From: a virus
Lineage: Duplodnaviria > Caudoviricetes
DNA length: 64,000 bases
IMG/VR virus record: IMGVR_UViG_3300027608_000010
Strand: one strand, 5' to 3'
Below the pieces are notes generated by a model. The model saw only the letters and a list, made by a program, of their open reading frames with translations. It had not been told where the DNA came from and made no database searches. The first letter of the stretch is position 1; the number at the start of each line of letters is the position of its first letter. The translations under genes and the position numbers were made by a program. This document shows positions 41,636-60,326 of this stretch, piece after piece.

Positions 41636-41941
41636 ATGGACACAAAAGAATTAATCAAAGAAGCCAAAGCTAGATTTAGCCACAATTCAACTAAGGCTTA
41701 TCTAAAAAGCAAATATCAAAGTAAACTTATAGTAGCCGATCAAGGTGGACTATGGACAGCTACACCAAGTCTAATAGCATTTTTATCTTCTACACAAGAT
41801 AATAATACAGTGTTATTAGATTCATACGACAACCCAGTCAAAGTAGATACAACCAAACTATTAATCAAGTTAAAAGAAACATATCGTGTTACTATGGAAG
41901 AATGGTATGCTGAGTTCTCAACATTAGAGAAGACTAGATGA
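41636..41941 (+). CDS. Hypothetical protein, first gene of the glycan cluster
   Basis: 101 aa; GTAAATA (41625-41631) 4 nt upstream; ATGA-coupled to the next gene. Confidence 0.6.
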   Translation: MDTKELIKEAKARFSHNSTKAYLKSKYQSKLIVADQGGLWTATPSLIAFLSSTQDNNTVLLDSYDNPVKVDTTKLLIKLKETYRVTMEEWYAEFSTLEKTR

Positions 41942-42741
41942 GTAAGGGTGTATTACTATTTGCATTCAATAATGGAACTACTGACTATTTTAAAATGGCA
42001 GTAGCCACTGCAAGCAGAGCATATCAATTCTTAAATCTACAAACTACAGTAGTAACAGACTCTAATACGATTGTAGAGAATTATTTTCATACTTTTGAGA
42101 ATGTGATAGTAGTTGACTCTGACAATAGTAATCGGGGTGTTGATAATCACATTTGGATCAACAAGGGCAGATATCAAGCATATGACCTATCTCCATATGA
42201 TGAGACACTATTATTAGATACTGACTATCTAATCAACAGTGATACCTTATTAAAACCATTTGAACTGTATGATGATTTTATGTGTCATAATACCACTGAG
42301 TTTTTAATGAAGTCTAAGGCTGAACAAGAGAAAATAAGTAAGTACTCCTTCAACACACTTTGGGCAACCGTGATTTATTTTAAGAAGACAAAGAAAACCA
42401 AACTAATATTTGATACTATGAAGATGGTTCAAGAAAACTATCAACATTATATTAATATATACAATCCTACAGTAGGATTCTTTCGCAACGATTTTGCATT
42501 GACTTTTGCATTACGCATAGTACATGGGCAGACGGAAGATATGAGAAATTACATCCCCTGGTCACTGACGCATGTTGATAAAGATGTTATGGTTGTACCA
42601 AACAAGCATCATACTTGTAATGAATCTTATACGTTATTATATGATAACCAGACCCGATATAAAGTTAAGAAAGAGTACATGATAGTAACAGATAAAGACT
42701 TTCATATGCTTAGTAAAGAAAACTTTATGGAGGTAGCATGA
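41938..42741 (+). CDS. Glycosyltransferase-like protein (GT-A fold, GT8-like)
   Basis: SPYDETLLLDTDYL DxD motif; LWATVIYFKK. Confidence 0.6.
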   Translation: MSKGVLLFAFNNGTTDYFKMAVATASRAYQFLNLQTTVVTDSNTIVENYFHTFENVIVVDSDNSNRGVDNHIWINKGRYQAYDLSPYDETLLLDTDYLINSDTLLKPFELYDDFMCHNTTEFLMKSKAEQEKISKYSFNTLWATVIYFKKTKKTKLIFDTMKMVQENYQHYINIYNPTVGFFRNDFALTFALRIVHGQTEDMRNYIPWSLTHVDKDVMVVPNKHHTCNESYTLLYDNQTRYKVKKEYMIVTDKDFHMLSKENFMEVA

Positions 42742-43502
42742 ATAGAGGATTTGTAATTATGGCACAGAACACAACGTCTGTTGACTATGTAAAATGTGCA
42801 GAACAGTTATCTAATAGTATTAACAAAGTCATGCCTGATGCTAATGTAACAATTATAACAGATAAGCTATTACCCTACGGTGATTTGGCAGTTGATAGTG
42901 ATTGGAAGTTAATCAATGATTGGCAAGTATACGAAGCTAGTCCATATGAATACACCATCAAACTAGAAGCAGATATGCTTATTCCACGAAACATAGACTA
43001 TTGGTGGGATATACTTAAAGAACATGATTTGATTGTCAGTGGTACTGTTAGAGATTACACCAACGGTATATCTAATATAAAATCATATAGGCAATTCATA
43101 ATCAACAACAATCTACCTGATGTGTATAATGCAATTACATATTTTAAGAAATCAGATAAGGCTGAGCAGTTCTACAAGATAGTACGAAATATTTTTGAAA
43201 ATTGGAATGAATTCAAATCTAACTTAACGTGTGAGACATCAGAGATTGCGACAACAGATTGGGCATATAGTATTGCTTGTCATATTATGGGTGTAGAAAA
43301 CACTACTTTACCCAATTTTAGTGAGTTTAGTTTTATACACATGAAACAATTCATAAATAATCTAATGATAGATGACTGGACCAAAGAGTTATTGTTTGAA
43401 TTTAACCCATCTCTTAAGGTAAATACTATCGTACAAGAATATCCATTTCACTATCACGTGAAATCGTTTAGTAATATTATTGGAGAACATTATGGAAAAT
43501 GA
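42738..43502 (+). CDS. Glycosyltransferase-like protein, paralog of the preceding gene
   Basis: SPYEYTIKLEADML, YNAITYFKK align with the preceding ORF (ExD in place of DxD). Confidence 0.55.
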   Translation: MNRGFVIMAQNTTSVDYVKCAEQLSNSINKVMPDANVTIITDKLLPYGDLAVDSDWKLINDWQVYEASPYEYTIKLEADMLIPRNIDYWWDILKEHDLIVSGTVRDYTNGISNIKSYRQFIINNNLPDVYNAITYFKKSDKAEQFYKIVRNIFENWNEFKSNLTCETSEIATTDWAYSIACHIMGVENTTLPNFSEFSFIHMKQFINNLMIDDWTKELLFEFNPSLKVNTIVQEYPFHYHVKSFSNIIGEHYGK

Positions 43503-43872
43503 AGAAGAATTATTTGATCTTGAAGAAATGCTTATCAACTTTTCAAAAGATATTGAACCTAAATTACCCGTTCCTTTTGAATTTAGGTTGTATTATCGTG
43601 AAGATGGTAGTATAATAACGTATTCATGTGAAGAACTTGAGGGTAATTATGTTGTTATTGACGCCGAAACATTTGCTAGTGGCAGAATTGATGTTAGAGT
43701 TGTTAATGGAGAGATAGAAATAATTACTCCTATATTTTCAATTGACAAATTAGTTGAAGCTACAGAAGGAACGGCTTGTGCAGTTGAAGATATTAACATC
43801 CCGGTTTCTAATGACCATGAAGGGGAAAGTACGAAATGGACAATGAAACACGATGAGTTCAAATTTAATTGA
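43480..43872 (+). CDS. Hypothetical acidic protein
   Basis: 130-aa ORF in operon register; FRLYYREDG. Confidence 0.55.
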   Translation: MENIMENEEELFDLEEMLINFSKDIEPKLPVPFEFRLYYREDGSIITYSCEELEGNYVVIDAETFASGRIDVRVVNGEIEIITPIFSIDKLVEATEGTACAVEDINIPVSNDHEGESTKWTMKHDEFKFN

Positions 43873-44800
43873 TGTAGCAGATTTAGATTGCATTTACCTA
43901 AGCTATGATGAACCACAAAAAGAAGAATTCTGGTTAAAAATTAAAAACATGGTGCCTTGGGCACGTAGAGTAGACGGTGTCAAGGGCAGTGACGCCGCTC
44001 ATAAAGCCGCCGCGGAAGCAAGTGATACTGAACGTTTCATATTGATTGACGGTGACAACATGCCCAACATGGAGTTCTTTAACTTAGAGTTAGACTTCAC
44101 TGACAAGCACGAAGATTACAAAAAAGCACAATATCGTTGGAGAGCAGTTAATGCTATCAACGGATTGCGCTACGGCAATGGCGGTATGAGTTCATGGACA
44201 AAAGAATATGTGATGAACATGCGTACACATGAAGCAAGTGATGGCAATGATACACATACGATTGACTTTTGTTTAGATTACAGCAACAGTTTATATTGGA
44301 GTATGTACGATTGCTACTCAACAACACACCCTAACTATACACCTTTTCAAGCATGGCGTGCTGGATTTCGTGAAGGCGTTAAGATGTGTCTAGTCAATGG
44401 TAAAAAGCCAGACATTGATGATTTTACACGTAATGTACCTGGACGTAACTTTAACAACTTAACTATATGGCATAATGTTGGATTAGATGTAGAGAACGGT
44501 GATTGGGCAATATATGGTGCAAGATACGGCACCTATATGACAATGTTAGAACATTGGAATTCAAAAGATGTTCAATGGTTTGATAATCTTAGTAAACTAT
44601 GGGAACATATAAAAGATGTAAATCCTAGACAAAATGCTGAGAGCATTGGTGAACATTTAAGAGATAAACTAGGACTACCAATATGTACAATGAGTGCTGA
44701 ACAAAGCAAATTCTTTAAGCGTCATTATAATAGTGACAAACACAACCTAGGTCCTCTAGTACGTGAGATAGATGTAATACGAAAAATAGAAGGTTGGTAA
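43853..44800 (+). CDS. Putative glycosyltransferase (GT-A-like, DGD motif)
   Basis: LSYDEP, RVDGVKGSDAAHKAAA, FILIDGDN, AWRAGFREGVKM. Confidence 0.5.
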   Translation: MSSNLIDVADLDCIYLSYDEPQKEEFWLKIKNMVPWARRVDGVKGSDAAHKAAAEASDTERFILIDGDNMPNMEFFNLELDFTDKHEDYKKAQYRWRAVNAINGLRYGNGGMSSWTKEYVMNMRTHEASDGNDTHTIDFCLDYSNSLYWSMYDCYSTTHPNYTPFQAWRAGFREGVKMCLVNGKKPDIDDFTRNVPGRNFNNLTIWHNVGLDVENGDWAIYGARYGTYMTMLEHWNSKDVQWFDNLSKLWEHIKDVNPRQNAESIGEHLRDKLGLPICTMSAEQSKFFKRHYNSDKHNLGPLVREIDVIRKIEGW

Positions 44801-44803: not shown

Positions 44804-46216
44804 ATGTCAGATTTTAATAATCATATCAAGATAGTAAAAGAGAAACTAGATACAGTTAGTCCTAGTTTTTGTGTGGCTAAATGGAAACAAGTTACAATGC
44901 ACTTACAGAACGGACATACACATAGTTGTCATCATCCGTCAACACACTTAGTACCGTTAGATGAAATTGCTTCAAACCCCACAGCACTACACAATACTAA
45001 TTATAAAAAATTACAAAGAAAATTGATGATAGAGGGTGAAAGACCCAGTGAATGTGATTATTGTTGGAAAGTAGAAGATCAAACCACTGATAGTTATAGT
45101 GACAGGGTTTATAAAAGTTCAGATCAATGGGCATTACCTTATGTAGATGATATTGTTAGCAAGCCTTGGGATGATAATGTAGATCCTAGTTATGTTGAAG
45201 TTAGTTTTGGTAATACATGTAATTTTAAATGTAGTTACTGTGCCCCTCATATTAGTAGTCAATGGATGGAAGAAATTGAAAGATATGGTCCATATCCTAC
45301 TAGCGGTAAATTCAATAATTTAGAATGGATCAAATTACAACAGATGATGCCTATTCCAAATAGAGATGAAAATCCCTATGTTGAAGCATTTTGGAAATGG
45401 TGGCCTACTATGTATAAGAGTTTGCAACATTTTAGAATCACCGGTGGCGAACCCTTATTAAACAAAAACACTTTCAAAGTTTTAGACTATGTTATTGACA
45501 ATCCAAATGCAAATTTAGAATTATCAATTAATACAAATCTAAATCCTCCGGATGATATATTTGATAGATTTATTGAAAAACTTAATATCATTATCAGTGA
45601 AAAGAAATTAAAAGAATTGAAGCTATTTACTAGTGCTGAAGCACATGGTAAGCAAGCTGAATATATTCGTTTTGGTATGAATTATGATACTTGGTTAACT
45701 AATTTACATAGATTATACAAAGAAGTCCCGGGTATACAAATTACTATTATGAGTACATACAATATATTGAGTATCCCAAGTTATGGTAAGTTTCTAAATG
45801 ATATATTAGAAATTAAACGAACTTACGGTGAAGTAGTTAACAAGCGTAAGAATCCCAATCCAATGATATTAGATATACCTTACTTACGATATCCAGAACA
45901 TCAATCAATATTTTTGATGGAAGCGTCAATGGTTGATATGATTTTTGACCAAGTAACTTTCATGTATAGAAATTTGCAAAATAAAGATTGGATGGGAACA
46001 TCTAATGATGGATTCTATGAGCATGAAGCGGAAAAATTAAAACGTATATATGAGATGGGTCTACACTCAGTCACTAATAAAAATGAATATGTAGATAACA
46101 ATCGTAAAGACTTTATTAAATTTGTTGATGAGCATGATTTGCGCCGCGGAACAAATTTCTTAGAAACTTTCCCTGAAATGAAAAACTTTTATAATAATTG
46201 TAAAAACCTATTATGA
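44804..46216 (+). CDS. Radical SAM protein with N-terminal auxiliary Cys cluster
   Basis: CNFKCSYC (CxxxCxxC), ITGGEP; additional CVAKW, SCHH and CDYCW. Confidence 0.9.
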   Translation: MSDFNNHIKIVKEKLDTVSPSFCVAKWKQVTMHLQNGHTHSCHHPSTHLVPLDEIASNPTALHNTNYKKLQRKLMIEGERPSECDYCWKVEDQTTDSYSDRVYKSSDQWALPYVDDIVSKPWDDNVDPSYVEVSFGNTCNFKCSYCAPHISSQWMEEIERYGPYPTSGKFNNLEWIKLQQMMPIPNRDENPYVEAFWKWWPTMYKSLQHFRITGGEPLLNKNTFKVLDYVIDNPNANLELSINTNLNPPDDIFDRFIEKLNIIISEKKLKELKLFTSAEAHGKQAEYIRFGMNYDTWLTNLHRLYKEVPGIQITIMSTYNILSIPSYGKFLNDILEIKRTYGEVVNKRKNPNPMILDIPYLRYPEHQSIFLMEASMVDMIFDQVTFMYRNLQNKDWMGTSNDGFYEHEAEKLKRIYEMGLHSVTNKNEYVDNNRKDFIKFVDEHDLRRGTNFLETFPEMKNFYNNCKNLL

Positions 46217-46644
46217 AATTTATAGCGCATCGCGGGAATTTATTAGGTCCTGATATTGAACATGAAAATACTACTAATTATATACAACATGCAATTAACA
46301 AAGGATATGATGTAGAAGTAGATGTATGGTATATAGATGGTAAACTTCTATTAGGGCATAATGCCCCCATGCATGATACTAATTTATCTTTTTTGCAACG
46401 CCCTGCAATATGGGCACATGCTAAAAATTTACCAGCGTTAGAGTACTTACTAAATAACAATGTTCATTGTTTTTGGCATGAAAATGATGAACGGACGTTG
46501 ACTAGTCAACACTATATTTGGACATACCCTGATAAAGAAATAGTAGAAAATAGTGTTTTAGTCGTGTTAACCAAACATTTAAATTTAATAGATAATAATA
46601 TTTACGCAGTATGTGGGGATTACGTTGAAATTTGGAAATCCTAA
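46213..46644 (+). CDS. Glycerophosphodiester phosphodiesterase-like (short GDPD)
   Basis: IAHRGN...EN, DVEVDVW, LGHN, WAHAKN. Confidence 0.75.
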   Translation: MKFIAHRGNLLGPDIEHENTTNYIQHAINKGYDVEVDVWYIDGKLLLGHNAPMHDTNLSFLQRPAIWAHAKNLPALEYLLNNNVHCFWHENDERTLTSQHYIWTYPDKEIVENSVLVVLTKHLNLIDNNIYAVCGDYVEIWKS

Positions 46645-47380
46645 GATTGCACTATGTTTTAGTGGTCAACCAAGAACCTGGCGAAAATGCTTAGAGTCTT
46701 GGAAATTGCACAATGTATTTACCGATAATGTAGATGTATTTTGTCATATTTGGGATTTTAATACAGTGCCAAACTGCGTTGCTGTTGGTAAAGATATAAA
46801 AAATCAGATATTACCTCAGGACGAAATTAATGAGTTACTTGCAATACTTAAGCCAAAAAAATATTTGATAGAACCAGTGAGAACTTTTACACCTATCAAA
46901 GAATCTCAACCTATTACTTTTTCTAATTTCTTAAGCCAATTTTATGGCATTATGGCAAGTGCTAGATTAAAACGAGAATATGAAATTGAAAATATGATGC
47001 AATATGATATTGTTATCCGAATGAGGTATGATGCTTTTTTTACTGATTCAATTTTCCCTAATCAACAAGTTCATCTACCGCAAGATAACACAATGTATTG
47101 CCATCATCTGGCATGGAATCATCTTTTAAATCGAGGTAGAATTGGTGATATATTTTGGTATGCTGACTCACAAACCTATGATATTATTGGTGATTATTAT
47201 TTAAATTTAAATTCAGTAGAACTAAAATTTGTTAAAGATTTCAATGAACATGAAATATTTTTTCATTATATTAAAAAAAATAATATTCAATTGAATATTA
47301 ATAATTGGGATATTAAATTGTTTCGTGAATCGTCAGAACTAGCTTTTTCTAAGGACAAAAATGGATTTGAGACCTGGTAA
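46613..47380 (+). CDS. Putative glycosyltransferase-like protein (start uncertain)
   Basis: KIALCFSGQPR, DVFCHIW, YDIVIRMRYD. Confidence 0.55.
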   Translation: MGITLKFGNPKIALCFSGQPRTWRKCLESWKLHNVFTDNVDVFCHIWDFNTVPNCVAVGKDIKNQILPQDEINELLAILKPKKYLIEPVRTFTPIKESQPITFSNFLSQFYGIMASARLKREYEIENMMQYDIVIRMRYDAFFTDSIFPNQQVHLPQDNTMYCHHLAWNHLLNRGRIGDIFWYADSQTYDIIGDYYLNLNSVELKFVKDFNEHEIFFHYIKKNNIQLNINNWDIKLFRESSELAFSKDKNGFETW

Positions 47381-48098
47381 AATTGCAATCTGTATTAGCG
47401 GGATGCTTAGGACAGGTATCAAAGCATATCCCTGTTTTAAACATTTTTTCAAAGATTTAAATGCAGATGTGTTCTTCCATACATGGGGTTTAGATAACGA
47501 GACATTAGATACTGTCAATAACTTATACGAACCAATAGGCTATATAAATCAACAACCATTCGAAACCATTTCAATGGGATCATTTGGTAATATGTTTTAC
47601 AGTATTATGATGGCTAATGAATTGAAAAAGAAATACGAAATAAAAAATAATTTTCGATATGATTTAGTTATAAAAACTAGGTTTGACTTAATTTTTCCTG
47701 ACACCAATATATTTGCTAATAACAAAATTAGCCCTAGAACCATTTATAGTTCAGGGGGAGATAATGGAATCAATCATACTGATTATGAACATCACGGGAT
47801 TGCTGATTTGATTTTTTGGGGTGATAGTGAATCTATGGATATTGCCACTAACACTTTTATGTATTATAAGCACACAGCATTGCCAAAGAATCAACTGTTG
47901 ATTTCAGGCATTCAATTTGATCCTAAAGCTATATTTTTAAGTCCAGGCAATCTGATTTATAATACATGTATCAACCAAAATATACACTTAGTTAAATTTG
48001 CATCATGGTTAGGGGAAGTACCTTGGCGCGATGACGTAGACCATTTAGATCCCTTTAGGGATTATGCTTTAATAAGAGAAAGATACCGGCAAATATGA
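47361..48098 (+). CDS. Putative glycosyltransferase-like protein, paralog of the preceding gene
   Basis: KIAICISGMLR, DVFFHTW, YDLVIKTRFD. Confidence 0.55.
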   Translation: MDLRPGKIAICISGMLRTGIKAYPCFKHFFKDLNADVFFHTWGLDNETLDTVNNLYEPIGYINQQPFETISMGSFGNMFYSIMMANELKKKYEIKNNFRYDLVIKTRFDLIFPDTNIFANNKISPRTIYSSGGDNGINHTDYEHHGIADLIFWGDSESMDIATNTFMYYKHTALPKNQLLISGIQFDPKAIFLSPGNLIYNTCINQNIHLVKFASWLGEVPWRDDVDHLDPFRDYALIRERYRQI

Positions 48099-48895
48099 GA
48101 AAAATAGTAGTAGTAGGAGACAGCTGGACATATGGTAGCGAGATTAAAGATCCAGCGTTACCCAACACAATCAATGATTGGGATGCAGAAAATGATTCAT
48201 ACAGAATTCCTAAAATTTGGCCAACTAAGTTGGGAAACTTATTGGGGACTTCCGATGTAATTAATCTAAGTTATCCTGCAGCCAGTAATGACCGTAGTGT
48301 TAGACTTTTAGTTGGGTGGTTGACACAAGAATATCTAAGTAAAAACAAACCTACCGATGAATTGTTTGTTGTAGTAGGATTAACTAGTCCAGAAAGAAAA
48401 GATTTTTTCTATATAGATGAAAAGATAAGTAATTGGATTACTATATGGCCAATGTGGACACATGATTATATGCAAGAACCACTGCGTAGATTTGGACGAC
48501 TGTATGCCGAACATTTTTGGAATATAGAAGAATCAACACATAGATATCTGCAACAAATTTTCTATTTACAAACATTATTCAAACATTATAACATTAAATT
48601 CTTATTCTTTCAAGCATTTTATCAAAGACAAGACTTGCATATTAAACAATGGACAGATGATCCCTATTCCAGACACTACCAAAGTCAGCCTGACAAAATG
48701 ATATGGGATCTAATTGATGATAAAACGTTTATGCATAAGAACGATAAGATACATAGTTTTCATAACTATATTATAAAGAATGATCCTGACCCTGAAAAGA
48801 AATCAGTAATCCTAAATATGCATCCTAGTGAACTGGGACATACGATGTGGGCAGAGCATATGACAGACTATCTTAAGGAGAATAATTTATGGTAA
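48095..48895 (+). CDS. SGNH/GDSL hydrolase-like protein
   Basis: GDSWTYG, SN, HPSELGH. Confidence 0.75.
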   Translation: MRKIVVVGDSWTYGSEIKDPALPNTINDWDAENDSYRIPKIWPTKLGNLLGTSDVINLSYPAASNDRSVRLLVGWLTQEYLSKNKPTDELFVVVGLTSPERKDFFYIDEKISNWITIWPMWTHDYMQEPLRRFGRLYAEHFWNIEESTHRYLQQIFYLQTLFKHYNIKFLFFQAFYQRQDLHIKQWTDDPYSRHYQSQPDKMIWDLIDDKTFMHKNDKIHSFHNYIIKNDPDPEKKSVILNMHPSELGHTMWAEHMTDYLKENNLW

Positions 48896-50384: not shown

Positions 50385-51114
50385 AAATATATTAATAGTT
50401 ACTTGGAATCAAGATTGGCATCAATGTTCTAATATGTTAATTCCTTCTATATCTAAATTTATCCCCGGAGCTAATATTAAAATAGTTGATACTACATTTC
50501 ATACACCCTCACCTATAATCGCCCCTAGCTTTAGTAATATAACATACGAAGTATTACCTGCAATACAATTATTAGAAACACTAGAACCTTGGAAAGGCGA
50601 CAATCATAATGAAGGTTGGATGTACCAACAGATGTGTAAATTAGCAGGATACAAATTATTTGATAGTGAATTTGTAGTATTAGATTCTGAATTAGTAATA
50701 CTTAGAAAATTTGATAAATGGCCTACATATTGTAGGCTAACAGCCAGTAATACTCATTTTAATAAATTTATAGAATATGCTAGTGCTAGATTGAATATTG
50801 ATTGCGAAGGTCATTGTTTTTTAGAACCGTGTGTTCCGTATATATTAGATCCTAAGATTTTAAAAGAAATAGTTTCAACATTTGGGTCATTTGCAGAATT
50901 ATATAAATGGTTTATCACACATTCGGAGCCTAGTGAATTTATACTTTACGATTTATTTAAATATAGAAAAGACTTGCAACAAGACACTAATAACCAAAAT
51001 ATATATGAAAGCCCGGCAATACAATTTATAATAGACAATAAACCGTATGTTTTGGATAGTAGATACGATTTTGCTTTGATTAACCGTAATGCCTATATGA
51101 ATTTTGGAAAATAG
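50377..51114 (+). CDS. Hypothetical protein, possible glycosyltransferase-like
   Basis: GWMYQQMCKL, VLDSE, SEFILY. Confidence 0.45.
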   Translation: MIKNILIVTWNQDWHQCSNMLIPSISKFIPGANIKIVDTTFHTPSPIIAPSFSNITYEVLPAIQLLETLEPWKGDNHNEGWMYQQMCKLAGYKLFDSEFVVLDSELVILRKFDKWPTYCRLTASNTHFNKFIEYASARLNIDCEGHCFLEPCVPYILDPKILKEIVSTFGSFAELYKWFITHSEPSEFILYDLFKYRKDLQQDTNNQNIYESPAIQFIIDNKPYVLDSRYDFALINRNAYMNFGK

Positions 51115-53495: not shown

Positions 53496-54583
53496 TATGT
53501 AACATAAAAACATCACTCCCGATTGAATTTGAAATCCGTAAAGCTGTCAACGTATTATCGTTATCCGAAATTACTAGTAAAAGAAAAATTGTTATAATTG
53601 ACAGAAATGTTTATGAGTTATATTCCGATCAACTATTTGATGACGTAGATTCGTTGTTATTTATAGACTCGTCCGAAGAAAACAAAGATTGGACAACTGC
53701 GGAAATGGTACTAACCTTCTTAGAAGAAAATAAAATATTACGTAGGTCAGAACCAGTAATAGCAATAGGTGGCGGAGTCTTATTAGACTTAGTAGGATTT
53801 TGCTGTAGCATATATCGTAGGGGTATTCCTTACATTCGTATACCCACGACATTACTAGCAATCGTTGACGCTAGTGTGGGAGCAAAAACAAGCGTAAATC
53901 ATTTTAATAGAAGAAATCGTTTGGGTAGTTTTTATCCACCACAACTAACATTGATTGACACTACGTTTATCAAAACACAATCTGATAGAGAAATATCTAA
54001 TGGCTTTGCAGAGATATTAAAATTAGCAATCGTGTTAGATAGTAAGTTGTTTGAATTAATAGAAACAGATTCAGATAAGTTACTACAGTGCAAATTTCAA
54101 GATACCGCACATTCAACTGAAATAATTGAACGGGCAATTGCAGGTATGACCAAAGAACTTAATGATAATTTGTGGGAGCAAGAATTAGAAAGACCAGTAG
54201 ATTTTGGTCATTCATTCAGTCCCCTAATTGAAATGAAGAACGTACCTAATCTACTTCACGGAGAAGCAGTTATACTAGATTGTTTATTAAGTTGCTGTAT
54301 ATCAACTGTTAGAAACCTTCTCTCAGCGGATGAGTTAACTAGAATATTTAATTTGACTAGAAAAATGAATCTACCTGTAACTCATACTGATTTTTTAAAT
54401 AGCACATTATTGTTAGAAGGCTTGTCTGATGTAATGAAGCACAGAAACGGAAATCAATACTTACCTATACCAACATCTATTGGACAGTGTAAAATCATCA
54501 ATGACCTAACACCTGCTGAATTAGAATCAGCAATACAACTAATGAGATTATATGAAAAAGACCATATTGATTACTGGCACTAG
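53492..54583 (+). CDS. Sedoheptulose-7-phosphate cyclase, 2-epi-5-epi-valiolone synthase (EEVS)-type
   Basis: DHQS-family core (IGGGVLLD, RIPTTLL..VDASVGAKT, EILK) plus NLWEQELERPVDFGHSFSP and KHRNG, the EEVS-type signature rather than AroB NLGH or DDGS AYGH. Confidence 0.8.
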   Translation: MICNIKTSLPIEFEIRKAVNVLSLSEITSKRKIVIIDRNVYELYSDQLFDDVDSLLFIDSSEENKDWTTAEMVLTFLEENKILRRSEPVIAIGGGVLLDLVGFCCSIYRRGIPYIRIPTTLLAIVDASVGAKTSVNHFNRRNRLGSFYPPQLTLIDTTFIKTQSDREISNGFAEILKLAIVLDSKLFELIETDSDKLLQCKFQDTAHSTEIIERAIAGMTKELNDNLWEQELERPVDFGHSFSPLIEMKNVPNLLHGEAVILDCLLSCCISTVRNLLSADELTRIFNLTRKMNLPVTHTDFLNSTLLLEGLSDVMKHRNGNQYLPIPTSIGQCKIINDLTPAELESAIQLMRLYEKDHIDYWH

Positions 54584-55217
54584 TAGTGGTCTAGGTTTAG
54601 CTCTGGCAAAACACTATAGCAAGAATCACAATGTTATTGGATTAAGTAGAACCAATGTAGAAATGCCTAATTATACTCATCATATTTGTGATATTAGTAA
54701 CTTTGATAACGTATCTAAAACATTTTATTCCATCGGTGATAGTAAAATTGATTTACTGATTAATAATGCAGGGGTATTTGATATGGACAAGTTTACTCAA
54801 ACATCTATCCATACTATTGACCGTGTTATTAATACTAACCTGACAGGTGCCATGTATGTAACCAGATCAGCATTAGAGTCAATGCCAGATCATAGTAAAA
54901 TAGTCTTTATCAATAGTGTAGCAGGATTAGAAGAATTAGAGAATCAAAGTATATATTGTGCTAGTAAGTATGGTCTAACTGCATTTGCTGGAATACTTGG
55001 TAAAGAACTAAGAGACAGACATATCAAAGTCTCTAGCATACACCCCGGTGGGATTAATACCCCATTATGGGATAATACCCCATACCCGTTAGGAGATGCT
55101 ACTAATGCAATGGATCCAAATTCTATAATAGAAATTATCGACCTAATTGTAAACAGTAAATATGATATTGATTACAAAACTGTCAAAATGTTTCCGTCTA
55201 TTGAATGGCATAACTGA
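54552..55217 (+). CDS. Short-chain dehydrogenase/reductase
   Basis: TGTSSGLG, NNAG, S, YCASK. Confidence 0.92.
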   Translation: MKKTILITGTSSGLGLALAKHYSKNHNVIGLSRTNVEMPNYTHHICDISNFDNVSKTFYSIGDSKIDLLINNAGVFDMDKFTQTSIHTIDRVINTNLTGAMYVTRSALESMPDHSKIVFINSVAGLEELENQSIYCASKYGLTAFAGILGKELRDRHIKVSSIHPGGINTPLWDNTPYPLGDATNAMDPNSIIEIIDLIVNSKYDIDYKTVKMFPSIEWHN

Positions 55218-55227: not shown

Positions 55228-55344
55228 ATGAGAAACTTATTTCAAACACTATATTATAATACAATTGGAAAATTAGTTAGAGAATACAAGTATAGAAAAC
55301 GATTAAAAGAGTTACGTAAACGAGATCCATTTATCTACAAATGA
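55228..55344 (+). CDS. 38-aa basic protein (not in track)
   Basis: MRNLFQTLYYNTIGKLVREYKYRKRLKELRKRDPFIYK; ATGA overlap with the carbamoyltransferase. Confidence 0.6.
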   Translation: MRNLFQTLYYNTIGKLVREYKYRKRLKELRKRDPFIYK

Positions 55345-56864
55345 ATATACTAGGAATCAGTGCCGGCTTTCATGACGCTGCCATCTCAGTTGTTAACACC
55401 CAAGGTGATATACTGTTTGCCGGCCACAGCGAACGCTACAGCAAGATAAAAAACGATGCACACATCAGCGCAGGCTTGATTGAAGAAATCTTCGGATTTG
55501 ATATTGATACCATTGCCTACTATGAACGACCCTGGGCCAAACAACTGCGTAGGCTTTACAGTGGCGAAGGTGTGCAATGGGGAGCCCTGACTGTAGAGCA
55601 ATGCTTACAAAGAGAACTCGGCGATCATCTAAAAATTTCCAGAGAACAAAACATCACGGATCCTCTGCATCCTGCTACAAATCTAAGAACCAGATCCTTC
55701 AATCACCATCTTAGTCATGCAGCCGGTGGATTTCAAACAAGTCCGTATGATCGTGCTACAGTTGTTGTGATTGATGCCATAGGTGAGTGGGATACGATAT
55801 CGATCTGGGGAGCCGAGTATGACAAGAGAGGCCGAGCACAGTATAAGAGATTGTGGACACAGCGCTATCCTCACAGCCTAGGTTTGTTTTATAGTGCAAT
55901 TACTAAGCGTGTGGGCCTACACCCATTAGACGAAGAATACATTACTATGGGCATGGCTGCTTATGGTGATGACCATTACCATGATCTTATGGAGGCAGTA
56001 TTGATCAGCGATGCAGACTCCATAGAATTCAAACAAAACTTGCACATAGGCGTTAGTGATAAATTCATGGACGGACTGGATCACATGGATATCGCTGCCA
56101 GTGCTCAACGGTTGTTACAACGACTAATAGGTAATGTCATGCGTAGAGCCAGGGATTTTAAGTGGTCAACCAATCTTGTGTATCAGGGTGGTGTTGCACT
56201 CAACTGTCTGGCCAATAGACAACTAGGAAGATTTTTTGAAAATATTTGGATTATGCCTTGCCCCGGTGATGCTGGCAGTAGTCTTGGCGCTGCTGCTCTT
56301 GCTCATGGTGGCAGGATTAATTGGACTACTGCTTTCTTGGGTCATGCTATACCCGGTAACTATCCCGTTAATGATGCTCTTAATCATCTCATTACTAATA
56401 GTATTGTTGGTGTAGCAAGTGGGCGTGCAGAATTTGGCCCAAGAGCATTGGGAAATAGAAGCCTACTTGCAGACCCAAGAGGAAAAGAAATAAAGGACCA
56501 AGTAAATGCAATCAAACGCAGACAAAAGTTTCGACCCTTTGCCCCTGTTATACTGGCTGAACTGGCTGATGACTATTTTGATATCAAGCCCGGCTGGCAT
56601 ACTCACAGTTATATGCAGTCAGTCGCTAGTTGCCGCGATCCTAATCTTTACCCTGCTATATGTCATGTTGATGGCACCAGTAGAGTACAAACGGTGGCAA
56701 AGGATGGATCAGGTATAAGACAGTTGTTAGAAGCCTGGTATGCACAAACAGGTTGCCCAATGTTATTGAACACTAGTCTTAACATACGCGGTGAACCCAT
56801 GGTAAATGATAGAACTGATGCTGATAGATTTCAGAATTTATACAATGTACAGGTCTTTTCGTGA
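55341..56864 (+). CDS. O-carbamoyltransferase (NodU/CmcH/TobZ family)
   Basis: GISAGFHDAA, ERYSKIKND, HHLSHAA, GGVALNC, GDAG, EFGPRALGNRS, KRRQKFRPFAP, DGTSRVQTV, LLNTSLN. Confidence 0.92.
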   Translation: MNILGISAGFHDAAISVVNTQGDILFAGHSERYSKIKNDAHISAGLIEEIFGFDIDTIAYYERPWAKQLRRLYSGEGVQWGALTVEQCLQRELGDHLKISREQNITDPLHPATNLRTRSFNHHLSHAAGGFQTSPYDRATVVVIDAIGEWDTISIWGAEYDKRGRAQYKRLWTQRYPHSLGLFYSAITKRVGLHPLDEEYITMGMAAYGDDHYHDLMEAVLISDADSIEFKQNLHIGVSDKFMDGLDHMDIAASAQRLLQRLIGNVMRRARDFKWSTNLVYQGGVALNCLANRQLGRFFENIWIMPCPGDAGSSLGAAALAHGGRINWTTAFLGHAIPGNYPVNDALNHLITNSIVGVASGRAEFGPRALGNRSLLADPRGKEIKDQVNAIKRRQKFRPFAPVILAELADDYFDIKPGWHTHSYMQSVASCRDPNLYPAICHVDGTSRVQTVAKDGSGIRQLLEAWYAQTGCPMLLNTSLNIRGEPMVNDRTDADRFQNLYNVQVFS

Positions 56865-59389
56865 TAGATATAGCGCATAGAAAAAAACTTTGGGATCAAG
56901 GATATTGGGAAATACCTGAAGGGTTAGATATAACTAACTTTGACTTCTCATGGAGACCAGAATCACATGATAGACCTTATATACATCAGTTTGGTACCCA
57001 GCATCAAAAGACAGGTGGACCAAGATTTGTAATTCCTGAAAATGAGGGTATCAAATATCAAAATTATCAACATGCAATAAGATTGCCTACTCCTGATATC
57101 AGATGTTGGCGACCATTGGTATCAAACATAGATTTTGATTATAGCTGGCACCCAGATGATACAGAACCTCCGTTCATTTATGTATTTGGTAACCAATGGC
57201 ATGACTCAGTTGAAATGCCGACTATACAATATAAAGTTTCAGGTGCAACTGAAAAGAAGTATGTTAATACAATAAAAGCAAAATTATTACCTGATAAAAC
57301 TAATTGGATCATACCTGATGATATAGAGGATAACTTTGACTATAGCTGGGTTCCTAGCCCCAAAGAACCATCTTTCATTTGGGAATTTGGAACACAATGG
57401 CAATCAACCGGTGGACCGAGTTATGTTGCACACGGCGCAACTTATACAAAATACTCTAAAGAATTGAATGCTACTAAGAAAAGTAATAATGAAGATAGAT
57501 GCTGGAGACCATTATTTCCCAATATAGACTTTGACTATAGTTGGCACCCCGATAAAAATGATCCGCCATACATATATGTGTTTGGCAATCAATGGTATGA
57601 TAGTTTAACAATGCCAACATTGTTATATAGGGTGAAAGGTGCAACTGAAAAGAAATATATGACTGACATAAAGGTCACGCTAACTCCTAATAAATCTTTG
57701 TGGTCTATACCAGATGACATAGAAGATGATTTTGATTATAGTTGGCTACCACACCCTGATGAACCGGCATATATATGGCAGTTCGGCACACAATGGCAGA
57801 AGAACGGTGGACCAAAGTATACTGCAATCAATGCAACTGTAGTTAAACATTCTGATTTGTTTAAAGCAACCAAAAAGAATATTAAAGAAAATCGTTTATA
57901 CAGACCATTAGTGTCAAATATTGAATTTGACTATAGCTGGCACCCGGATGAAGATGAACCACCATACATATATGTATTCGGCAATCAATGGTATGATAGT
58001 TTAAAAATGCCGACATTGGTATACCGAGTTAAAAGAGCTACTGAGAAGAAATATATGACTGACATAAAGGTCACGCTAACTCCTAATAAATCTTTGTGGT
58101 CTATACCAGATGACATAGAAGATGATTTTGATTATAGTTGGCTACCAGACCCCATAGAGCCACCATTTATTTGGCAGTTCGGCACACAATGGCAGAGGAA
58201 CGGTGGACCAAAGTATAATGCACTAGGAGCAAACATAATTAAACATTCTGATTTGTTCAAGGCAACTAAAAAATCTAATATTCGTAATTGGCGTTTTATT
58301 GAATCTATTAATAAAGAAACATTTGACTTTAGTTGGCACCCAGATGAAACAGAAGAAAACTTTAACCACATTGTTGGTACTAAGTTTCATACACCTGAGA
58401 TAATGCCTGCAATTATGTATCGTGGACACAATGATGCAAGAACTAACAAATATACTACAGAGATATGTGCTGATTTGACGATAGATAAGATTGTATATGA
58501 GGATAGCATATTTGATGCATGTATGGAACATAAATTCTCTACTGCTTATGCACATTTTGTAAAGAATACTAATAGCAACTACACACATGATTTGATTAAG
58601 GCTGATAATATCAGCGTACATTTATTTCCAAGCGAGGCGATTATTCCTAAGTCAGCAGTTACATTCTTCTATGATAAGATTACTGACTATGACCATGTTA
58701 TTGAACATGAATTTGAAGAAACAGTTGAGCCACTAGATGTTATATTCTTTAGTAACGGTGAAGCATGTGCTGATGACAATTATAATCATTTATTGTCACT
58801 TAATTTACCTAATAGAATTGTGCGTATTGACAGAGTGAAAGGTCGTGTTGCAAGTCAACATGCGGCAGCAAATGCTAGTAATACCCCCTGGTACTTCTTG
58901 GTAAATGCTAAGTTAAAAGTAAGAGATGACTTTGACTTCAATTGGCAACCAAACATATACAAATCACGTAGACACTATATATTCAGGGCAACTAATCCTG
59001 TAAATGGATTAGTGTATGGTCACCAAGCTATTGTCGCAAACAACAAGAAACTTACTTTGAACACTGTAGTTCGTGGGTTAGACTTTACAATGGACAGTGC
59101 AACAGAAGTAGTTGACATTAACTCCGGAGTAGCAATGTACAATACTAGTGCGTGGGATACTTGGAGAACAGCATTTAGAGAAATGATTAAACTATGTTGC
59201 AACACAGACCAAGATTCAATTGACAGAGGCGCAGCCTGGTTGAATAAGGGTTACGGAGACTTTGGTGAATACAGCAAGTTGGGTGCAAAAGATGCAGTTG
59301 ATTATTATAACAGTGTTGATGGTAATATGGAAAAACTTATGCTAAGTTATGATTGGGAATGGTTGTATCAGTATTACCAAAATAGTTGA
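56861..59389 (+). CDS. Trp-rich tandem-repeat protein with a C-terminal domain paralogous to ORF 43853
   Basis: Eight FD[YF]SW.P units; C-terminal IFFSNGE...RIDRVKG...HAAA...WRTAFRE aligns with ORF 43853. Confidence 0.7.
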   Translation: MIDIAHRKKLWDQGYWEIPEGLDITNFDFSWRPESHDRPYIHQFGTQHQKTGGPRFVIPENEGIKYQNYQHAIRLPTPDIRCWRPLVSNIDFDYSWHPDDTEPPFIYVFGNQWHDSVEMPTIQYKVSGATEKKYVNTIKAKLLPDKTNWIIPDDIEDNFDYSWVPSPKEPSFIWEFGTQWQSTGGPSYVAHGATYTKYSKELNATKKSNNEDRCWRPLFPNIDFDYSWHPDKNDPPYIYVFGNQWYDSLTMPTLLYRVKGATEKKYMTDIKVTLTPNKSLWSIPDDIEDDFDYSWLPHPDEPAYIWQFGTQWQKNGGPKYTAINATVVKHSDLFKATKKNIKENRLYRPLVSNIEFDYSWHPDEDEPPYIYVFGNQWYDSLKMPTLVYRVKRATEKKYMTDIKVTLTPNKSLWSIPDDIEDDFDYSWLPDPIEPPFIWQFGTQWQRNGGPKYNALGANIIKHSDLFKATKKSNIRNWRFIESINKETFDFSWHPDETEENFNHIVGTKFHTPEIMPAIMYRGHNDARTNKYTTEICADLTIDKIVYEDSIFDACMEHKFSTAYAHFVKNTNSNYTHDLIKADNISVHLFPSEAIIPKSAVTFFYDKITDYDHVIEHEFEETVEPLDVIFFSNGEACADDNYNHLLSLNLPNRIVRIDRVKGRVASQHAAANASNTPWYFLVNAKLKVRDDFDFNWQPNIYKSRRHYIFRATNPVNGLVYGHQAIVANNKKLTLNTVVRGLDFTMDSATEVVDINSGVAMYNTSAWDTWRTAFREMIKLCCNTDQDSIDRGAAWLNKGYGDFGEYSKLGAKDAVDYYNSVDGNMEKLMLSYDWEWLYQYYQNS
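57651..58147 (+). repeat. Intragenic tandem repeat, 396-bp period
   Basis: 57651-57751 is identical to 58047-58147. Confidence 0.95.
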
Positions 59390-59414
59390 CCTTAACTAAA
59401 TACTATGATACGAT
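59386..59414 (+). promoter_or_regulatory. Sigma70 promoter with embedded late motif
   Basis: TTGACC-17 nt-TACGAT, CTAAATA within the spacer. Confidence 0.55.
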
Positions 59415-59424
59415 AAGGACTGTC

Positions 59425-59571
59425 ATGGAACTAGTACGATACAGAGATGCGGGTATGAATACATATACTTGGTTTTATGTAAATGACAAAAAACATTGTA
59501 TTAGTCCTTTTTTTGATAGTGAGCAAGAAGCCAAAGATTGGTTTGAAAAAGTTTTTGATGGTGATGAATGA
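59425..59571 (+). CDS. Hypothetical 48-aa protein
   Basis: ATG 59425 with an AAGGA SD; the track start at 59386 coincides with the -35 box. Confidence 0.5.
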   Translation: MELVRYRDAGMNTYTWFYVNDKKHCISPFFDSEQEAKDWFEKVFDGDE

Positions 59572-60326
59572 GTGATGAAAAAATAACATTATTTGCGAAC
59601 GGATGTAGTCATACAGCTGGTTCTGAAATAGAACATGAGTACCAAGGATATTGTTATCATAAAGCCTGGCCCCGCTGGTTAGCAGATGATAAAAATTGGA
59701 ATTGGGTTAATAAAGCGGAACCAGGCGGAAGTAATGAGGGAATTAGTAGAAGTACTATTGAATGGATTACTCAGAATGTGGTTATTGAAAAAAAATATAA
59801 TCATACTAATTTAATAGTAATGATTCTGTGGTCGGGCTTTAATAGATTTGAAGTATGGAATCCCGGAGACGGTAAATTTATATCAGTCTCAGGTATTAGT
59901 ACTGATGAAGCACCAGATATAATGGAATATATTAAGTTAAGAACAATAATAGATTTGTCCCCGGTAACTGAATATAAAAATCTATTGGATATGTACCTTA
60001 CTGCAATATTCTTAGAATCACTGAATATTAAATATTATTTTGCTAATGCATTGTACGATTGGCCAACAGTGGAAGAATTCACCGGTAACAAATGGTTATC
60101 TGACCGGTATGAAATAATTTATAAAGCATATGGAGATAGAAGACACCGACATTTAGGATTTACTGATCCAAAAGAACGTTTTGGGGAATACTTAACACAG
60201 TACCCACTTAGTCCGTATGCACGGTTCGGTCATTGGGGAGTAGATGGTCATCAAAAATGGAAAGATTACTTATTACAATGGATGAGTCAATTAGATAATC
60301 CGATAGATATCATCCAAAATAATTGA
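59568..60326 (+). CDS. SGNH hydrolase-like protein
   Basis: GCSHTAG, GGSN, HWGVDGH. Confidence 0.7.
   Translation: MSDEKITLFANGCSHTAGSEIEHEYQGYCYHKAWPRWLADDKNWNWVNKAEPGGSNEGISRSTIEWITQNVVIEKKYNHTNLIVMILWSGFNRFEVWNPGDGKFISVSGISTDEAPDIMEYIKLRTIIDLSPVTEYKNLLDMYLTAIFLESLNIKYYFANALYDWPTVEEFTGNKWLSDRYEIIYKAYGDRRHRHLGFTDPKERFGEYLTQYPLSPYARFGHWGVDGHQKWKDYLLQWMSQLDNPIDIIQNN

What the first reader, a model, noticed from the sequence alone, without database searches (positions are those of the whole stretch)
41636..60326. Phage-encoded C7-cyclitol (carbasugar) biosynthesis and transfer cluster right after the tail-fibre genes
Seen: a co-oriented, largely translationally coupled run containing an EEVS-type sedoheptulose-7-P cyclase, APH-fold kinase, nucleotidyltransferase, SDR, cupin, RLP, short GDPD, carbamoyltransferase, radical SAM, three SGNH proteins and about six GT-like ORFs, starting at a late-promoter-like motif. 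Known: in acarbose/validamycin pathways EEVS product is epimerised, phosphorylated, nucleotidylated and passed on by (pseudo)glycosyltransferases. Inference: the phage makes an NDP-activated carbasugar or unusual heptose derivative, tailored by carbamoylation/acylation, and installs it on virion proteins (glycan shield) or the host envelope. I know of no described phage cyclitol pathway.
Basis: partly seen in the sequence, partly recalled or inferred. Interest (0 to 1): 0.88.

Follow-up and report, generated by a model that had tools for sequence, protein, structure and literature searches.

The report
Phage carbasugar and glycan gene island
A lake-water jumbo phage carries an 18.7-kb operon-like island of sugar-building genes whose core should turn sedoheptulose 7-phosphate into an activated carbocyclic "pseudo-sugar", a compound class known so far only from antibiotics and sunscreens, apparently as a part for a glycan.

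Summary
Window 41636-60326 is a run of 21 co-oriented ORFs with 16 overlapping junctions, in a T4-like freshwater jumbo phage. ORF 53492-54583 is an EEVS-type sedoheptulose-7-P cyclase and not AroB. It scores 284 bits to ValA, 188 to DDGS and at most 161 to DHQS. It keeps the ValA D281/H360 fingerprint and falls in a 98%-supported clade apart from DHQS and DDGS.

The cyclase, an APH-fold kinase-like protein and an SDR are adjacent in nearly all the viral contigs whose flanks reach them, usually with a nucleotidyltransferase and a GT-A-fold transferase. The same cassette sits beside Wzz in polysaccharide loci of Polynucleobacter and a Desulfobulbaceae MAG.

The best reading is an activated C7 cyclitol that is built into a glycoconjugate. 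The acceptor (virion proteins or host envelope) is unresolved.

- The island is a composite: the NTase-cupin-RLP triad also occurs in phages without EEVS.
- The kinase family carries an invariant Asn where the catalytic Asp should be.
- Known pseudoglycosyltransferases are GT-B, whereas the transferase folded here is GT-A.

No paper I found links EEVS to phages or polysaccharides. Earlier notes of this scan found the core cassette in two bacterial glycan loci (e1-1122594, e1-3330526).

The parts
41636..41941 (+). First ORF of the array (101 aa), no family
   Evidence: GTAAATA lies 8 nt before the ATG.
41938..42741 (+).
   Evidence: BLASTP E 3e-10 to 42738-43502. No Pfam or PHROG family.
42738..43502 (+). 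254-aa paralogue of the previous ORF
   Evidence: Hits phrog_1903, function unknown.
43480..43872 (+). 130-aa ORF, unknown
43853..44800 (+). 315-aa protein, GT2-like lead
   Evidence: Atlas score 0.99 to a viral cluster named 'Glycosyltransferase 2-like'. Homologous to residues 622-779 of the 842-aa protein.
44804..46216 (+). N-twitch radical SAM enzyme
   Evidence: NF033640, 338 bits against a cut-off of 170. Conserved in L001, L003, L037, L038 and the RLP-only loci.
46213..46644 (+). 143-aa protein with an HRG...ENT motif (GDPD-like lead)
   Evidence: Motif. Atlas GDPD clusters at 0.78-0.85. No Pfam or PDB hit.
46613..47380 (+). GT-A-fold transferase X1, WavE-like
   Evidence: Model pLDDT 83. 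VIA Z 10-12 to Mnn9, ColGalT1 and GT6. AFDB top hit 'WavE lipopolysaccharide synthesis', E 1e-15, TM 0.70. Homologue lies next to the NTase in about 20 viral contigs.
47361..48098 (+). GT-A-fold paralogue X2
   Evidence: 30% identity, E 2e-16 to X1.
48095..48895 (+). DUF6071 protein with an N-terminal GDS motif (SGNH-like)
   Evidence: Pfam 67 bits. Motif.
48889..49668 (+). 259-aa protein with an N-terminal GDS motif (SGNH-like lead)
   Evidence: Only a weak DUF685 hit.
49665..50384 (+). Sugar-1-phosphate-type nucleotidyltransferase
   Evidence: PF00483 above its cut-off. Best PDB match 4evw, 68 bits. GAGKR motif.
50377..51114 (+). DUF6492 protein
   Evidence: Pfam 24.4 bits against a cut-off of 22.9. 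Absent from the near-identical contig L001.
51117..51443 (+). 108-aa cupin-like protein
   Evidence: Motifs only. Always directly upstream of the RLP.
51440..52558 (+). Form-IV RuBisCO-like protein
   Evidence: PF00016, 113 bits. Keeps KPK, K-x-D-E and H327; lacks H294, R295, H298 and K334.
52509..53495 (+). APH-fold kinase-like protein with HGNPTLEN
   Evidence: Other gene calls start it 33-114 nt later.
53492..54583 (+). EEVS-type sedoheptulose-7-phosphate cyclase
54552..55217 (+). Classical SDR, putative cyclitol ketoreductase
   Evidence: adh_short, 125 bits. Motifs. Directly follows EEVS in 29 of 31 viral loci.
55341..56864 (+). NodU/CmcH-type O-carbamoyltransferase
   Evidence: Carbam_trans_N and Carbam_trans_C. 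Only 57% identical in L001, whose flanking genes are 97-99% identical.
56861..59389 (+). 842-aa protein with a C-terminal GT2-like domain
   Evidence: Residues 622-779 match 43853 and the 234-aa protein that follows the SDR in L002, L003 and L037. The N-terminal ~600 aa are unknown.
59568..60326 (+). Second DUF6071 (SGNH-like, GCS motif); last ORF of the island
   Evidence: Pfam 38 bits. A sigma-70-like site and ATAAATA at 60323-60351 start the next unit.

Best explanation
The island is a phage-encoded, fully cytoplasmic glycan-building kit. Its core makes an activated C7 cyclitol (carbasugar).

Shown by sequence, fold or comparison:
- An EEVS-type cyclase, a classical SDR, an APH-fold kinase-like protein, a sugar-1-P-type nucleotidyltransferase and GT-A-fold transferases are translationally coupled here.
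- They travel together in many phages and in bacterial polysaccharide loci.

Inferred pathway: the cyclase converts sedoheptulose 7-phosphate to 2-epi-5-epi-valiolone. The SDR reduces the ketone. The kinase-like protein phosphorylates a ring hydroxyl. The nucleotidyltransferase makes the NDP-cyclitol. A GT-A (WavE-like) enzyme transfers the cyclitol, or cyclitol phosphate, onto a growing glycan.

The remaining genes build and tailor the rest of the glycan: further GT-like proteins, three SGNH-like proteins, the carbamoyltransferase, the radical SAM enzyme and the separable NTase-cupin-RLP module.

Acceptor (inferred, about 0.3 on its own): phage virion proteins, glycosylated before assembly. 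The overall confidence figure refers to 'activated cyclitol built into a glycoconjugate'.
For: EEVS type:
- phmmer gives ValA (4p53) 284 bits, DDGS (5tpr) 188 and DHQS 161 or less.
- The metal ligands E174, H240 and H256 are kept. So are D237 and H317, which align to ValA D281 and H360, the two sites said to separate EEVS from DDGS (PMC4426668).
- In my own set the rows split as D/H for 68 EEVS-type rows, A/T for DDGS and N/V for DHQS.
- In the tree the window lies in a 98% clade of phage and kinase-linked sequences. DHQS (98%) and DDGS (100%) are separate. The anchors are L107 (ValA, 637 bits) and L130 (DDGS, 582 bits).

Linkage:
- Kinase, EEVS and SDR are adjacent in nearly all of the 31 viral loci whose flanks reach them.
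- A GT-A homologue and an NTase complete a five-gene cassette in about 20 of them.
- The syntenic island in a 166-kb contig is only 63% identical in EEVS.

Cellular contexts: kinase-EEVS-SDR-NTase lies beside Wzz, GT2, GT9, ManC and GMD in Polynucleobacter, and beside Wzz and GT1 in a Desulfobulbaceae MAG.

Folds: kinase and GT-A.

None of the 21 proteins has a predicted membrane segment. This fits assembly on a cytoplasmic acceptor.

Precedent for the chemistry: AcbC, then AcbU (1-kinase), then AcbR (NTase) give GDP-valienol (PMC9200736).
Against: - No enzyme was assayed, so the product and the nucleotide are unknown.
- The kinase family carries Asn at the catalytic-Asp position in 49 of the 51 homologues checked. 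Only a divergent archaeal MAG has Asp, and one homologue showed no match to the motif. It may not be a conventional hydroxyl kinase.
- Characterised pseudoglycosyltransferases are GT-B (GT20, GT5). They use unsaturated GDP-valienol and need an amine nucleophile, and all known pseudo-oligosaccharides have a C-N link (PMC9200736). The conserved transferase folded here is GT-A, the window has no aminotransferase, and no dehydratase is identified.
- The window's only NTase is about 25% identical to the NTase of the common cassette and 38-58% identical to those of the EEVS-free RLP modules. It may therefore serve another sugar.
- Position next to fibre genes is not conserved: the cassette lies beside DnaB or a helicase in other phages.
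- Only 2 of the 14 published EEVS fingerprint sites could be checked.
Confidence: 0.5

Rival explanations
1. The pathway is the same, but the acceptor is the host envelope. The soluble phage transferases build a cyclitol-containing unit on the host's undecaprenyl-linked O-antigen or capsule intermediates. Host flippase, polymerase and ligase export it, changing the surface of infected cells, for example to block superinfection.
For: The only interpretable cellular contexts of the cassette are Wzz-containing polysaccharide loci. The closest AFDB cluster of the GT-A is named 'WavE lipopolysaccharide synthesis'. From memory, T4-like cyanophages such as P-SSM2 carry 'LPS' gene clusters.
Against: No membrane protein, flippase, polymerase, ligase or polyprenol-phosphate transferase lies in the island. 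Surface conversion is typical of temperate phages, and this is a T4-like lytic type.
Confidence: 0.2
2. The product is a free small molecule: a pseudo-oligosaccharide or cyclitol that inhibits glycosidases or other sugar-processing enzymes of the host or of competitors, as acarbose and validamycin do.
For: All characterised bacterial EEVS pathways give secondary metabolites (PMC12904256; PMC9200736).
Against: Several GT-like genes, three SGNH-like genes and linkage to Wzz in bacteria point to a polymer or glycoconjugate. The window has no aminotransferase for a C-N-linked pseudo-oligosaccharide and no exporter.
Confidence: 0.1
3. The NDP-cyclitol, or another sugar made here, is used to hypermodify phage DNA bases.
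For: RB69 and DLP3 make NDP-arabinose for DNA with a nucleotidyltransferase-kinase fusion whose kinase half resembles APH (10.1101/2025.06.16.659550). In some phages the cassette lies next to replication genes.
Against: The DNA glycosyltransferases described there resemble GT-B enzymes such as BshA, MshA and PimA, whereas the folded transferase here is GT-A. The bacterial homologues sit in polysaccharide loci. An unchecked first-reader note places a separate deazaguanine and GT-B cluster elsewhere in this genome.
Confidence: 0.07
4. The cyclase does not make a valiolone. It makes another cyclitol or uses another sugar phosphate, and the island simply makes ordinary nucleotide sugars.
For: Only 2 of the 14 fingerprint sites were checked. 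The backbone of the EEVS radiation is unresolved. Product specificity in this superfamily has been mis-predicted from trees before (PMC5133447).
Against: 45% identity to ValA across the whole active-site region, together with the D/H fingerprint and the metal ligands.
Confidence: 0.06

Closest known systems
GDP-valienol branch of acarbose and validamycin biosynthesis (AcbC/ValA, AcbM/ValC, AcbL/AcbN, AcbU, AcbR/ValB, AcbS/VldE)
   Same: An EEVS cyclase, then redox tailoring, phosphorylation, nucleotidylation and transfer of the carbasugar (PMC9200736).
   Different: - The kinase is APH-fold with HGN, not ROK or adenosine-kinase-like.
- The NTase is a short RmlA/4evw-like enzyme, not GlgC-like.
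- The transferase is GT-A, not GT-B (GT20/GT5).
- No VOC epimerase, HAD phosphatase or aminotransferase is present in the window.
- The setting is a phage and bacterial surface-glycan loci, not an actinomycete secondary-metabolite cluster.
APH-fold kinase plus NTP_transferase pairs that activate non-standard units (AmgK/MurU, LicA/LicC; from memory)
   Same: A small-molecule kinase of the APH fold next to a short nucleotidyltransferase. Weak hits of the phage NTase to MurU and LicC were seen.
   Different: The substrate would be a carbocycle. The catalytic Asp of the kinase is replaced by Asn.
Virus-encoded glycosylation machineries (chlorovirus and mimivirus glycans, PMC9614988; mycobacteriophage capsid glycosylation, from memory)
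   Same: Soluble viral glycosyltransferases and sugar-nucleotide enzymes that work in the cytoplasm without host ER or periplasm steps.
   Different: No carbasugar is known in those systems. Here the acceptor is unproven.
Form-IV-like RuBisCO-like proteins on Myoviridae scaffolds (Jaffe et al. 2018, PMC6389311)
   Same: A divergent RLP on large myovirus-type genomes that lacks carboxylase residues. That paper left the function open.
   Different: This work supplies the gene context: the RLP always follows a 108-aa cupin-like gene and an NTase inside glycan-tailoring clusters, with or without EEVS. I did not test whether these are the same RLP clade as in the paper.
NDP-arabinose and DNA arabinosylation cluster of RB69/DLP3 (10.1101/2025.06.16.659550)
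   Same: A T4-like phage makes its own unusual NDP-sugar using nucleotidyltransferase and APH-like kinase activities.
   Different: That system has GT-B transferases and a modified-base synthase. Neither is present in this island.

Membership tests
[quoted passage not shown] | DHQS fold with NAD and metal sites | tested here: met
   PF01761 and PF24621. GGGV, K132, N142, E174, H240 and H256 are invariant.
[quoted passage not shown] | The two fingerprint sites that separate EEVS from DDGS (ValA D281, H360) | tested here: met
   D237 and H317 align to them. DDGS rows have A/T and DHQS rows N/V.
[quoted passage not shown] | The other 12 of the 14 fingerprint residues (Kean et al. 2014) | not tested
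   The paper listing them is not held.
[quoted passage not shown] | Groups with characterised EEVS rather than DHQS or DDGS | tested here: met
   Bit scores 284, 188 and 161. In the tree, DHQS and DDGS are split off at 98-100%. The deep order inside the EEVS radiation is unresolved.
[quoted passage not shown] | Makes 2-epi-5-epi-valiolone from sedoheptulose 7-phosphate | not testable with these tools
   Needs an enzyme assay.
APH/choline-kinase-type small-molecule kinases | Bilobal protein-kinase-like fold | tested here: met
   Foldseek probability 1.0, TM 0.5-0.65.
APH/choline-kinase-type small-molecule kinases | Catalytic Asp of the HxDxxxxN motif | tested here: not met
   The motif reads HGNPTLEN. 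Asn is found in 49 of the 51 homologues checked. N207 and D221 (metal binding) and K42 are kept.
Sugar-1-phosphate nucleotidyltransferases (PF00483) | Domain above the Pfam cut-off and an N-terminal G-x-G-x-R loop | tested here: met
   33.1 bits against a cut-off of 21.2. GAGKR motif.
Classical SDR | TGxxxGxG, NNAG, Ser and YxxxK | tested here: met
   adh_short, 125 bits.
RuBisCO form IV (RLP) as opposed to a carboxylase | Large-chain barrel with K175/K177 and K201/D203/E204 kept | tested here: met
   KPK and IKEDE in the alignment to 2cwx.
Bona fide RuBisCO (forms I-III) | Loop-6 K334 and H294, R295 and H298 | tested here: not met
   These positions read Tyr, Gln, Lys and Asp.
GT-A glycosyltransferases | GT-A Rossmann-like fold | tested here: met
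   For 46613-47380: Z 10-12, 184-205 residues aligned. AFDB WavE-like hit, E 1e-15.
GT-A glycosyltransferases | DxD metal motif | tested here: inconclusive
   Invariant R138-x-D140 and D179. Their register with DxD was not checked on the model.
Pseudoglycosyltransferases (VldE, AcbS) | GT-B fold of GT20 or GT5 type | tested here: not met
   No Pfam GT-B (GT5, GT20 or Glycos_transf_1) domain hit any island protein. The conserved transferase is GT-A.
SGNH hydrolases | Block I GDS(L) and the later catalytic blocks | tested here: inconclusive
   GDS in 48095 and 48889, GCS in 59568. Later blocks and the fold were not tested. The Pfam hit is DUF6071.
GDPD | GDPD domain | tested here: inconclusive
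   HRG...ENT motif only. No Pfam or PDB hit. Atlas lead at 0.85 or lower.
NodU/CmcH O-carbamoyltransferases | Carbam_trans_N plus Carbam_trans_C | tested here: met
   122 and 164 bits.

The most novel reading that the evidence does not exclude
A carbocyclic pseudo-sugar made from sedoheptulose 7-phosphate is a genuine building block of glycoconjugates, both on phage particles or infected cells and in bacterial surface polysaccharides. It would be installed from an NDP-cyclitol by a GT-A enzyme through a C-O or phosphodiester link that no known pseudoglycosyltransferase makes. Such a link would resist glycosidases and phage depolymerases. In this reading the phage RuBisCO-like proteins that were left unexplained in 2018 are sugar-phosphate tailoring enzymes of the same glycan kits.
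Probability: 0.35. Interest if true: 0.9.

Novelty: new variant of a known kind. Interest (0 to 1): 0.72.

Why it matters
C7 cyclitols are known as antibiotics, enzyme inhibitors and sunscreens. A 2026 review of the field does not mention phages, viruses or polysaccharides.

If this reading is right, it has four consequences:
- A conserved, widespread cassette in lake and marine phages and in bacterial O-antigen or capsule loci would add carbasugars to the repertoire of glycan units.
- It would point to a new type of pseudo-glycosyl or cyclitol-phosphate transferase.
- It would point to an APH-fold enzyme that works without the usual catalytic Asp.
- It would give a testable gene context for the roughly 80 phage RuBisCO-like proteins whose function was left open in PMC6389311.

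A non-hydrolysable sugar in a surface glycan would also bear on phage-host recognition and on resistance to depolymerases.

Tried and rejected
- blastn of the core against deposited phages found no match.
- tblastn of the cyclase against deposited phages returned only bacterial aroB genes in mislabelled or contaminated records.
- The window's own assembly is not held. The nearest record, G001, is a 17-kb fragment with no match.
- Profile searches of the PDB with the kinase and GT-A alignments gave nothing significant by sequence. The folds were needed.
- hhalign of the GT-A family against 50377, 41938 and 43853 found no relation.
- PHROGs gave only two families of unknown function.
- PDB sequence searches with the radical SAM enzyme and the GDPD-like ORF found nothing.
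- The Kean 2014 and Asamizu 2012 papers are not held, so the full 14-residue fingerprint could not be applied.
- Lake metatranscriptome libraries hold short contigs (260-500 nt, depth 2-10) over 15-26 of the 30 bins of the island (23-26 in three of the four runs). These are contigs from RNA libraries that may contain DNA, so they do not show transcription, timing or strand. Uncovered bins mean nothing.
- EEVS was sought in five whole viral records that carry the RLP module and was not found. These records are 10-65% complete, so absence from those genomes is not shown. Only the lack of linkage is.
- A single-pathway reading with the RLP as the cyclitol epimerase or dehydratase was considered and downgraded.

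Full report
**What the window is.** The window comes from a T4-like phage. It encodes gp46/47-type SbcCD nuclease subunits, a gp5-like baseplate hub and a gp6-like wedge, followed by a 5507-aa ORF. GC content is about 35%. The cyclase protein was seen on a 296,737-bp contig, so this is a jumbo phage. The stretch is held almost word for word by at least 14 freshwater or lake metagenome runs from 2016 to 2025. Deposited phage genomes contain nothing similar.

**Observation.** From 41636 to 60326 there are 21 plus-strand ORFs. Sixteen junctions overlap, two have gaps of 2-3 nt, and two have gaps of 123 and 178 nt. Promoter-like and terminator-like sites inside the run are no more frequent than in shuffled sequence.

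The heptamer ATAAATA is depleted in the window (14 copies against 43 expected). Its plus-strand copies mostly lie just before genes, including the next unit at 60339. The island itself starts with the variant GTAAATA, 8 nt before its first ATG.

The SGNH, cupin and GDPD calls and four of the GT calls rest on motifs or weak leads only.

**The cyclase.** Against solved structures the protein scores 284 bits to ValA (4p53), 188 to DDGS (5tpr), 161 or less to DHQS and 82 to DOIS. It stays below the NCBIfam aroB cut-off (217 against 305).

In the printed alignment the motif holding ValA D281 (VDFGHSFSP) is identical, and H360 in KHR(D/N)G is kept, while DDGS has Ala and Thr at these two sites. These are the two sites reported to separate EEVS from DDGS (PMC4426668).

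I assembled 94 sequences at under 80% identity: phage, bacterial, cyanobacterial DDGS and DHQS. All 68 EEVS-type rows have D/H, the DDGS rows A/T and the DHQS rows N/V.

A maximum-likelihood tree, built on 93 of these after one outlier was dropped, puts DHQS (98%) and DDGS plus a sister group (100%) apart. The window falls in a 98% clade of phage and kinase-linked sequences. The anchors are a Streptomyces hygroscopicus sequence (637 bits to ValA) and a cyanobacterial one (582 bits to DDGS). The deep order inside the EEVS radiation is unresolved, and 12 of the 14 published fingerprint sites could not be checked.

**The conserved cassette.** Thirty-one viral contigs encode a relative at 47-97% identity. 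The SDR follows the cyclase in 29 of them. The kinase-like gene precedes it wherever the flank reaches. In about 20, a 235-aa protein and an NTase complete a tightly overlapping five-gene unit.

A 166-kb contig with only 63% cyclase identity keeps almost the whole island in the same order, from the radical SAM gene to the SDR. A 122-kb phage contig has NTase-kinase-EEVS-SDR with three radical SAM genes next to a helicase and a primase.

The kinase-like family is small: 717 hits among 5.8 billion proteins. Its model (pLDDT 90.7) is an APH or ketoamine-kinase fold.

The 235-aa family, present twice in the window, is GT-A. VIA Z scores are 10-12 to Mnn9, ColGalT1 and GT6 enzymes. The best AFDB cluster is named 'WavE lipopolysaccharide synthesis' (E 1e-15, TM 0.70).

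**Cellular relatives.** A scan of one genome per species found EEVS-type genes at 39-53% identity. The kinase-like gene accompanies the cyclase in Polynucleobacter, Myxococcota, Fibrobacteria, Balneolaceae, Desulfobulbaceae, Actinomarina and Melainabacteria-type MAGs and in Prochlorococcus single-cell assemblies. It is absent from the actinomycete natural-product clusters.

In the cultured Polynucleobacter sp. 80A-SIGWE the order is ManC, GT2, Wzz, kinase, EEVS, SDR, NTase, then GT9 and GDP-mannose dehydratase. In the Desulfobulbaceae MAG, a GT1 and Wzz directly precede the cassette. These are surface-polysaccharide loci. This is the main reason to read the product as a glycan unit and not as a free metabolite.

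**Points that complicate the simple pathway.**

1. The kinase motif is HGNxTLEN in 49 of the 51 homologues checked, viral and cellular. Only one divergent archaeal MAG has HGD, and one homologue showed no match. The metal-binding Asn and Asp and the lysine are kept. Either another residue, such as the invariant Glu before the Asn, acts as the base, or the chemistry differs from hydroxyl phosphorylation.

2. The two characterised pseudoglycosyltransferases are GT-B enzymes. They use unsaturated GDP-valienol and need an amine acceptor, and all natural pseudo-oligosaccharides have a C-N link (PMC9200736). Here the conserved transferase is GT-A and the window has no aminotransferase, although DegT genes flank the cassette in other phages. 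A cyclitol-phosphate (phosphodiester) transfer is a reasonable alternative. The conserved GDPD-like ORF would fit it, but that remains inference.

3. The island is a composite. A scan with the RLP found nine viral loci. Seven carry NTase-cupin-RLP, mostly with radical SAM, GDPD-like, GT-A and SGNH genes, but no kinase, EEVS or SDR. None was found on five of those records searched whole (they are fragments). In one of them the module ends at the tail sheath gene. The window's only NTase is 38-58% identical to those of the RLP modules, 47% to the NTase next to the kinase in L038, and about 25% to the NTase of the common cassette. The RLP and cupin may therefore belong to a second sugar-donor route and not to cyclitol tailoring.

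**The RLP.** It keeps KPK, the K-x-D-E metal and carbamate motif, H327 and the C-terminal GG..HP phosphate site. It has Gln, Lys and Asp at the H294, R295 and H298 positions and Tyr at the loop-6 K334 position. It is a form-IV-type enolising enzyme for a phosphorylated substrate and not a carboxylase. Jaffe et al. reported about 80 such proteins on myovirus scaffolds and left the function open; their text does not mention cyclases, nucleotidyl- or glycosyl- enzymes or gene neighbours (PMC6389311). The constant cupin-RLP pairing after an NTase inside glycan clusters is new context.

**Where the product goes.** None of the 21 proteins has a predicted membrane segment. There is no flippase, polymerase, ligase or initiating phosphotransferase. 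This favours a cytoplasmic acceptor such as virion proteins, as in giant-virus glycosylation (PMC9614988). It does not exclude building on host lipid-linked intermediates. The DNA-modification alternative has a precedent in the NTase-kinase fusion of RB69/DLP3, but those systems use GT-B transferases. I rank the acceptors as virion proteins about 0.3, host envelope about 0.2, free metabolite about 0.1 and DNA about 0.07.

**Modularity.** The near-identical contig L001 is 97-99% identical from the cupin to the SDR. It is only 57% identical in the carbamoyltransferase and 63-86% in the GT and SGNH genes, and it lacks the DUF6492 gene. RNA-library contigs from lakes break away from the window at 43517-43678, 47236 and 60338-60372. 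The tailoring part is swapped between close relatives, as in O-antigen loci.

**Novelty.** Full-text searches found no paper joining EEVS or valiolone with phages, viruses or polysaccharides. A 2026 review of cyclitols mentions none of them. Earlier notes of this scan describe the same four-gene cassette in a Melainabacteria glycosylation island, noting its presence in aquatic phages (e1-1122594), and in a CPR glycan locus (e1-3330526). My searches reached the same picture independently, but those notes are not independent evidence.

I file this as a new variant of known kinds: EEVS pathways and virus-encoded glycosylation. Confidence that the cyclase is EEVS-type is high (about 0.9). Confidence in an activated cyclitol used in a glycoconjugate is moderate (about 0.5). 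The acceptor remains open.

Noticed in passing
window 22056-38579 (+): A single 5507-aa ORF directly after the gp6-like baseplate wedge gene. Pfam finds only one sub-threshold FG-GAP repeat. It is presumably a giant fibre or baseplate-attached protein.
   Followed up: partly
whole window: ATAAATA is strongly depleted (14 copies against 43 expected). Its plus-strand copies mostly lie just upstream of genes (3440, 9769, 18657, 38583, 39378, 60339, 62706, 63667), which is behaviour expected of a T4-type late promoter.
   Followed up: partly
window 52509-53495 and homologues in L001-L063: An APH-fold family with an invariant HGNxTLEN: Asn replaces the catalytic Asp. JAK2 pseudokinase was the best sequence-profile hit.
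   Followed up: partly
L154-L160 (e.g. L155 6935-9104): An NTase-cupin-RLP triad in phage glycan clusters that lack EEVS. In L155 it ends next to the tail sheath gene. In L157 it lies among an NDP-sugar C-methyltransferase, an epimerase and O-methyltransferases.
   Followed up: partly
L001 versus window 55341-56864 and 50377-51114: Mosaic exchange between near-identical phages. The carbamoyltransferase is 57% identical while its neighbours are 97-99%, and the DUF6492 gene is absent from L001.
   Followed up: no
window 60428-60820 and 62784-63347 (+): A signal-peptide glycine-zipper lipoprotein-like gene and a signal-peptide outer-membrane beta-barrel gene follow the island. They suggest a Gram-negative-type host.
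   Followed up: no
window 39410-40630 and 40643-41599 (+): Two genes that both start MAYQ. The first has a weak Peptidase_G2 intramolecular-chaperone domain, typical of tail fibres or spikes.
   Followed up: no
L089, L090 (Prochlorococcus single-cell assemblies): NTase-kinase-EEVS on short contigs of Prochlorococcus single amplified genomes. These could be phage DNA from infected cells and not host genes.
   Followed up: no
L137-L143, L148 (cyanobacteria): A sister group of DDGS with Ala and Lys at the two fingerprint sites and Arg at the K132 position, some copies in open frames of about 600 aa. It may be EboD-like.
   Followed up: no
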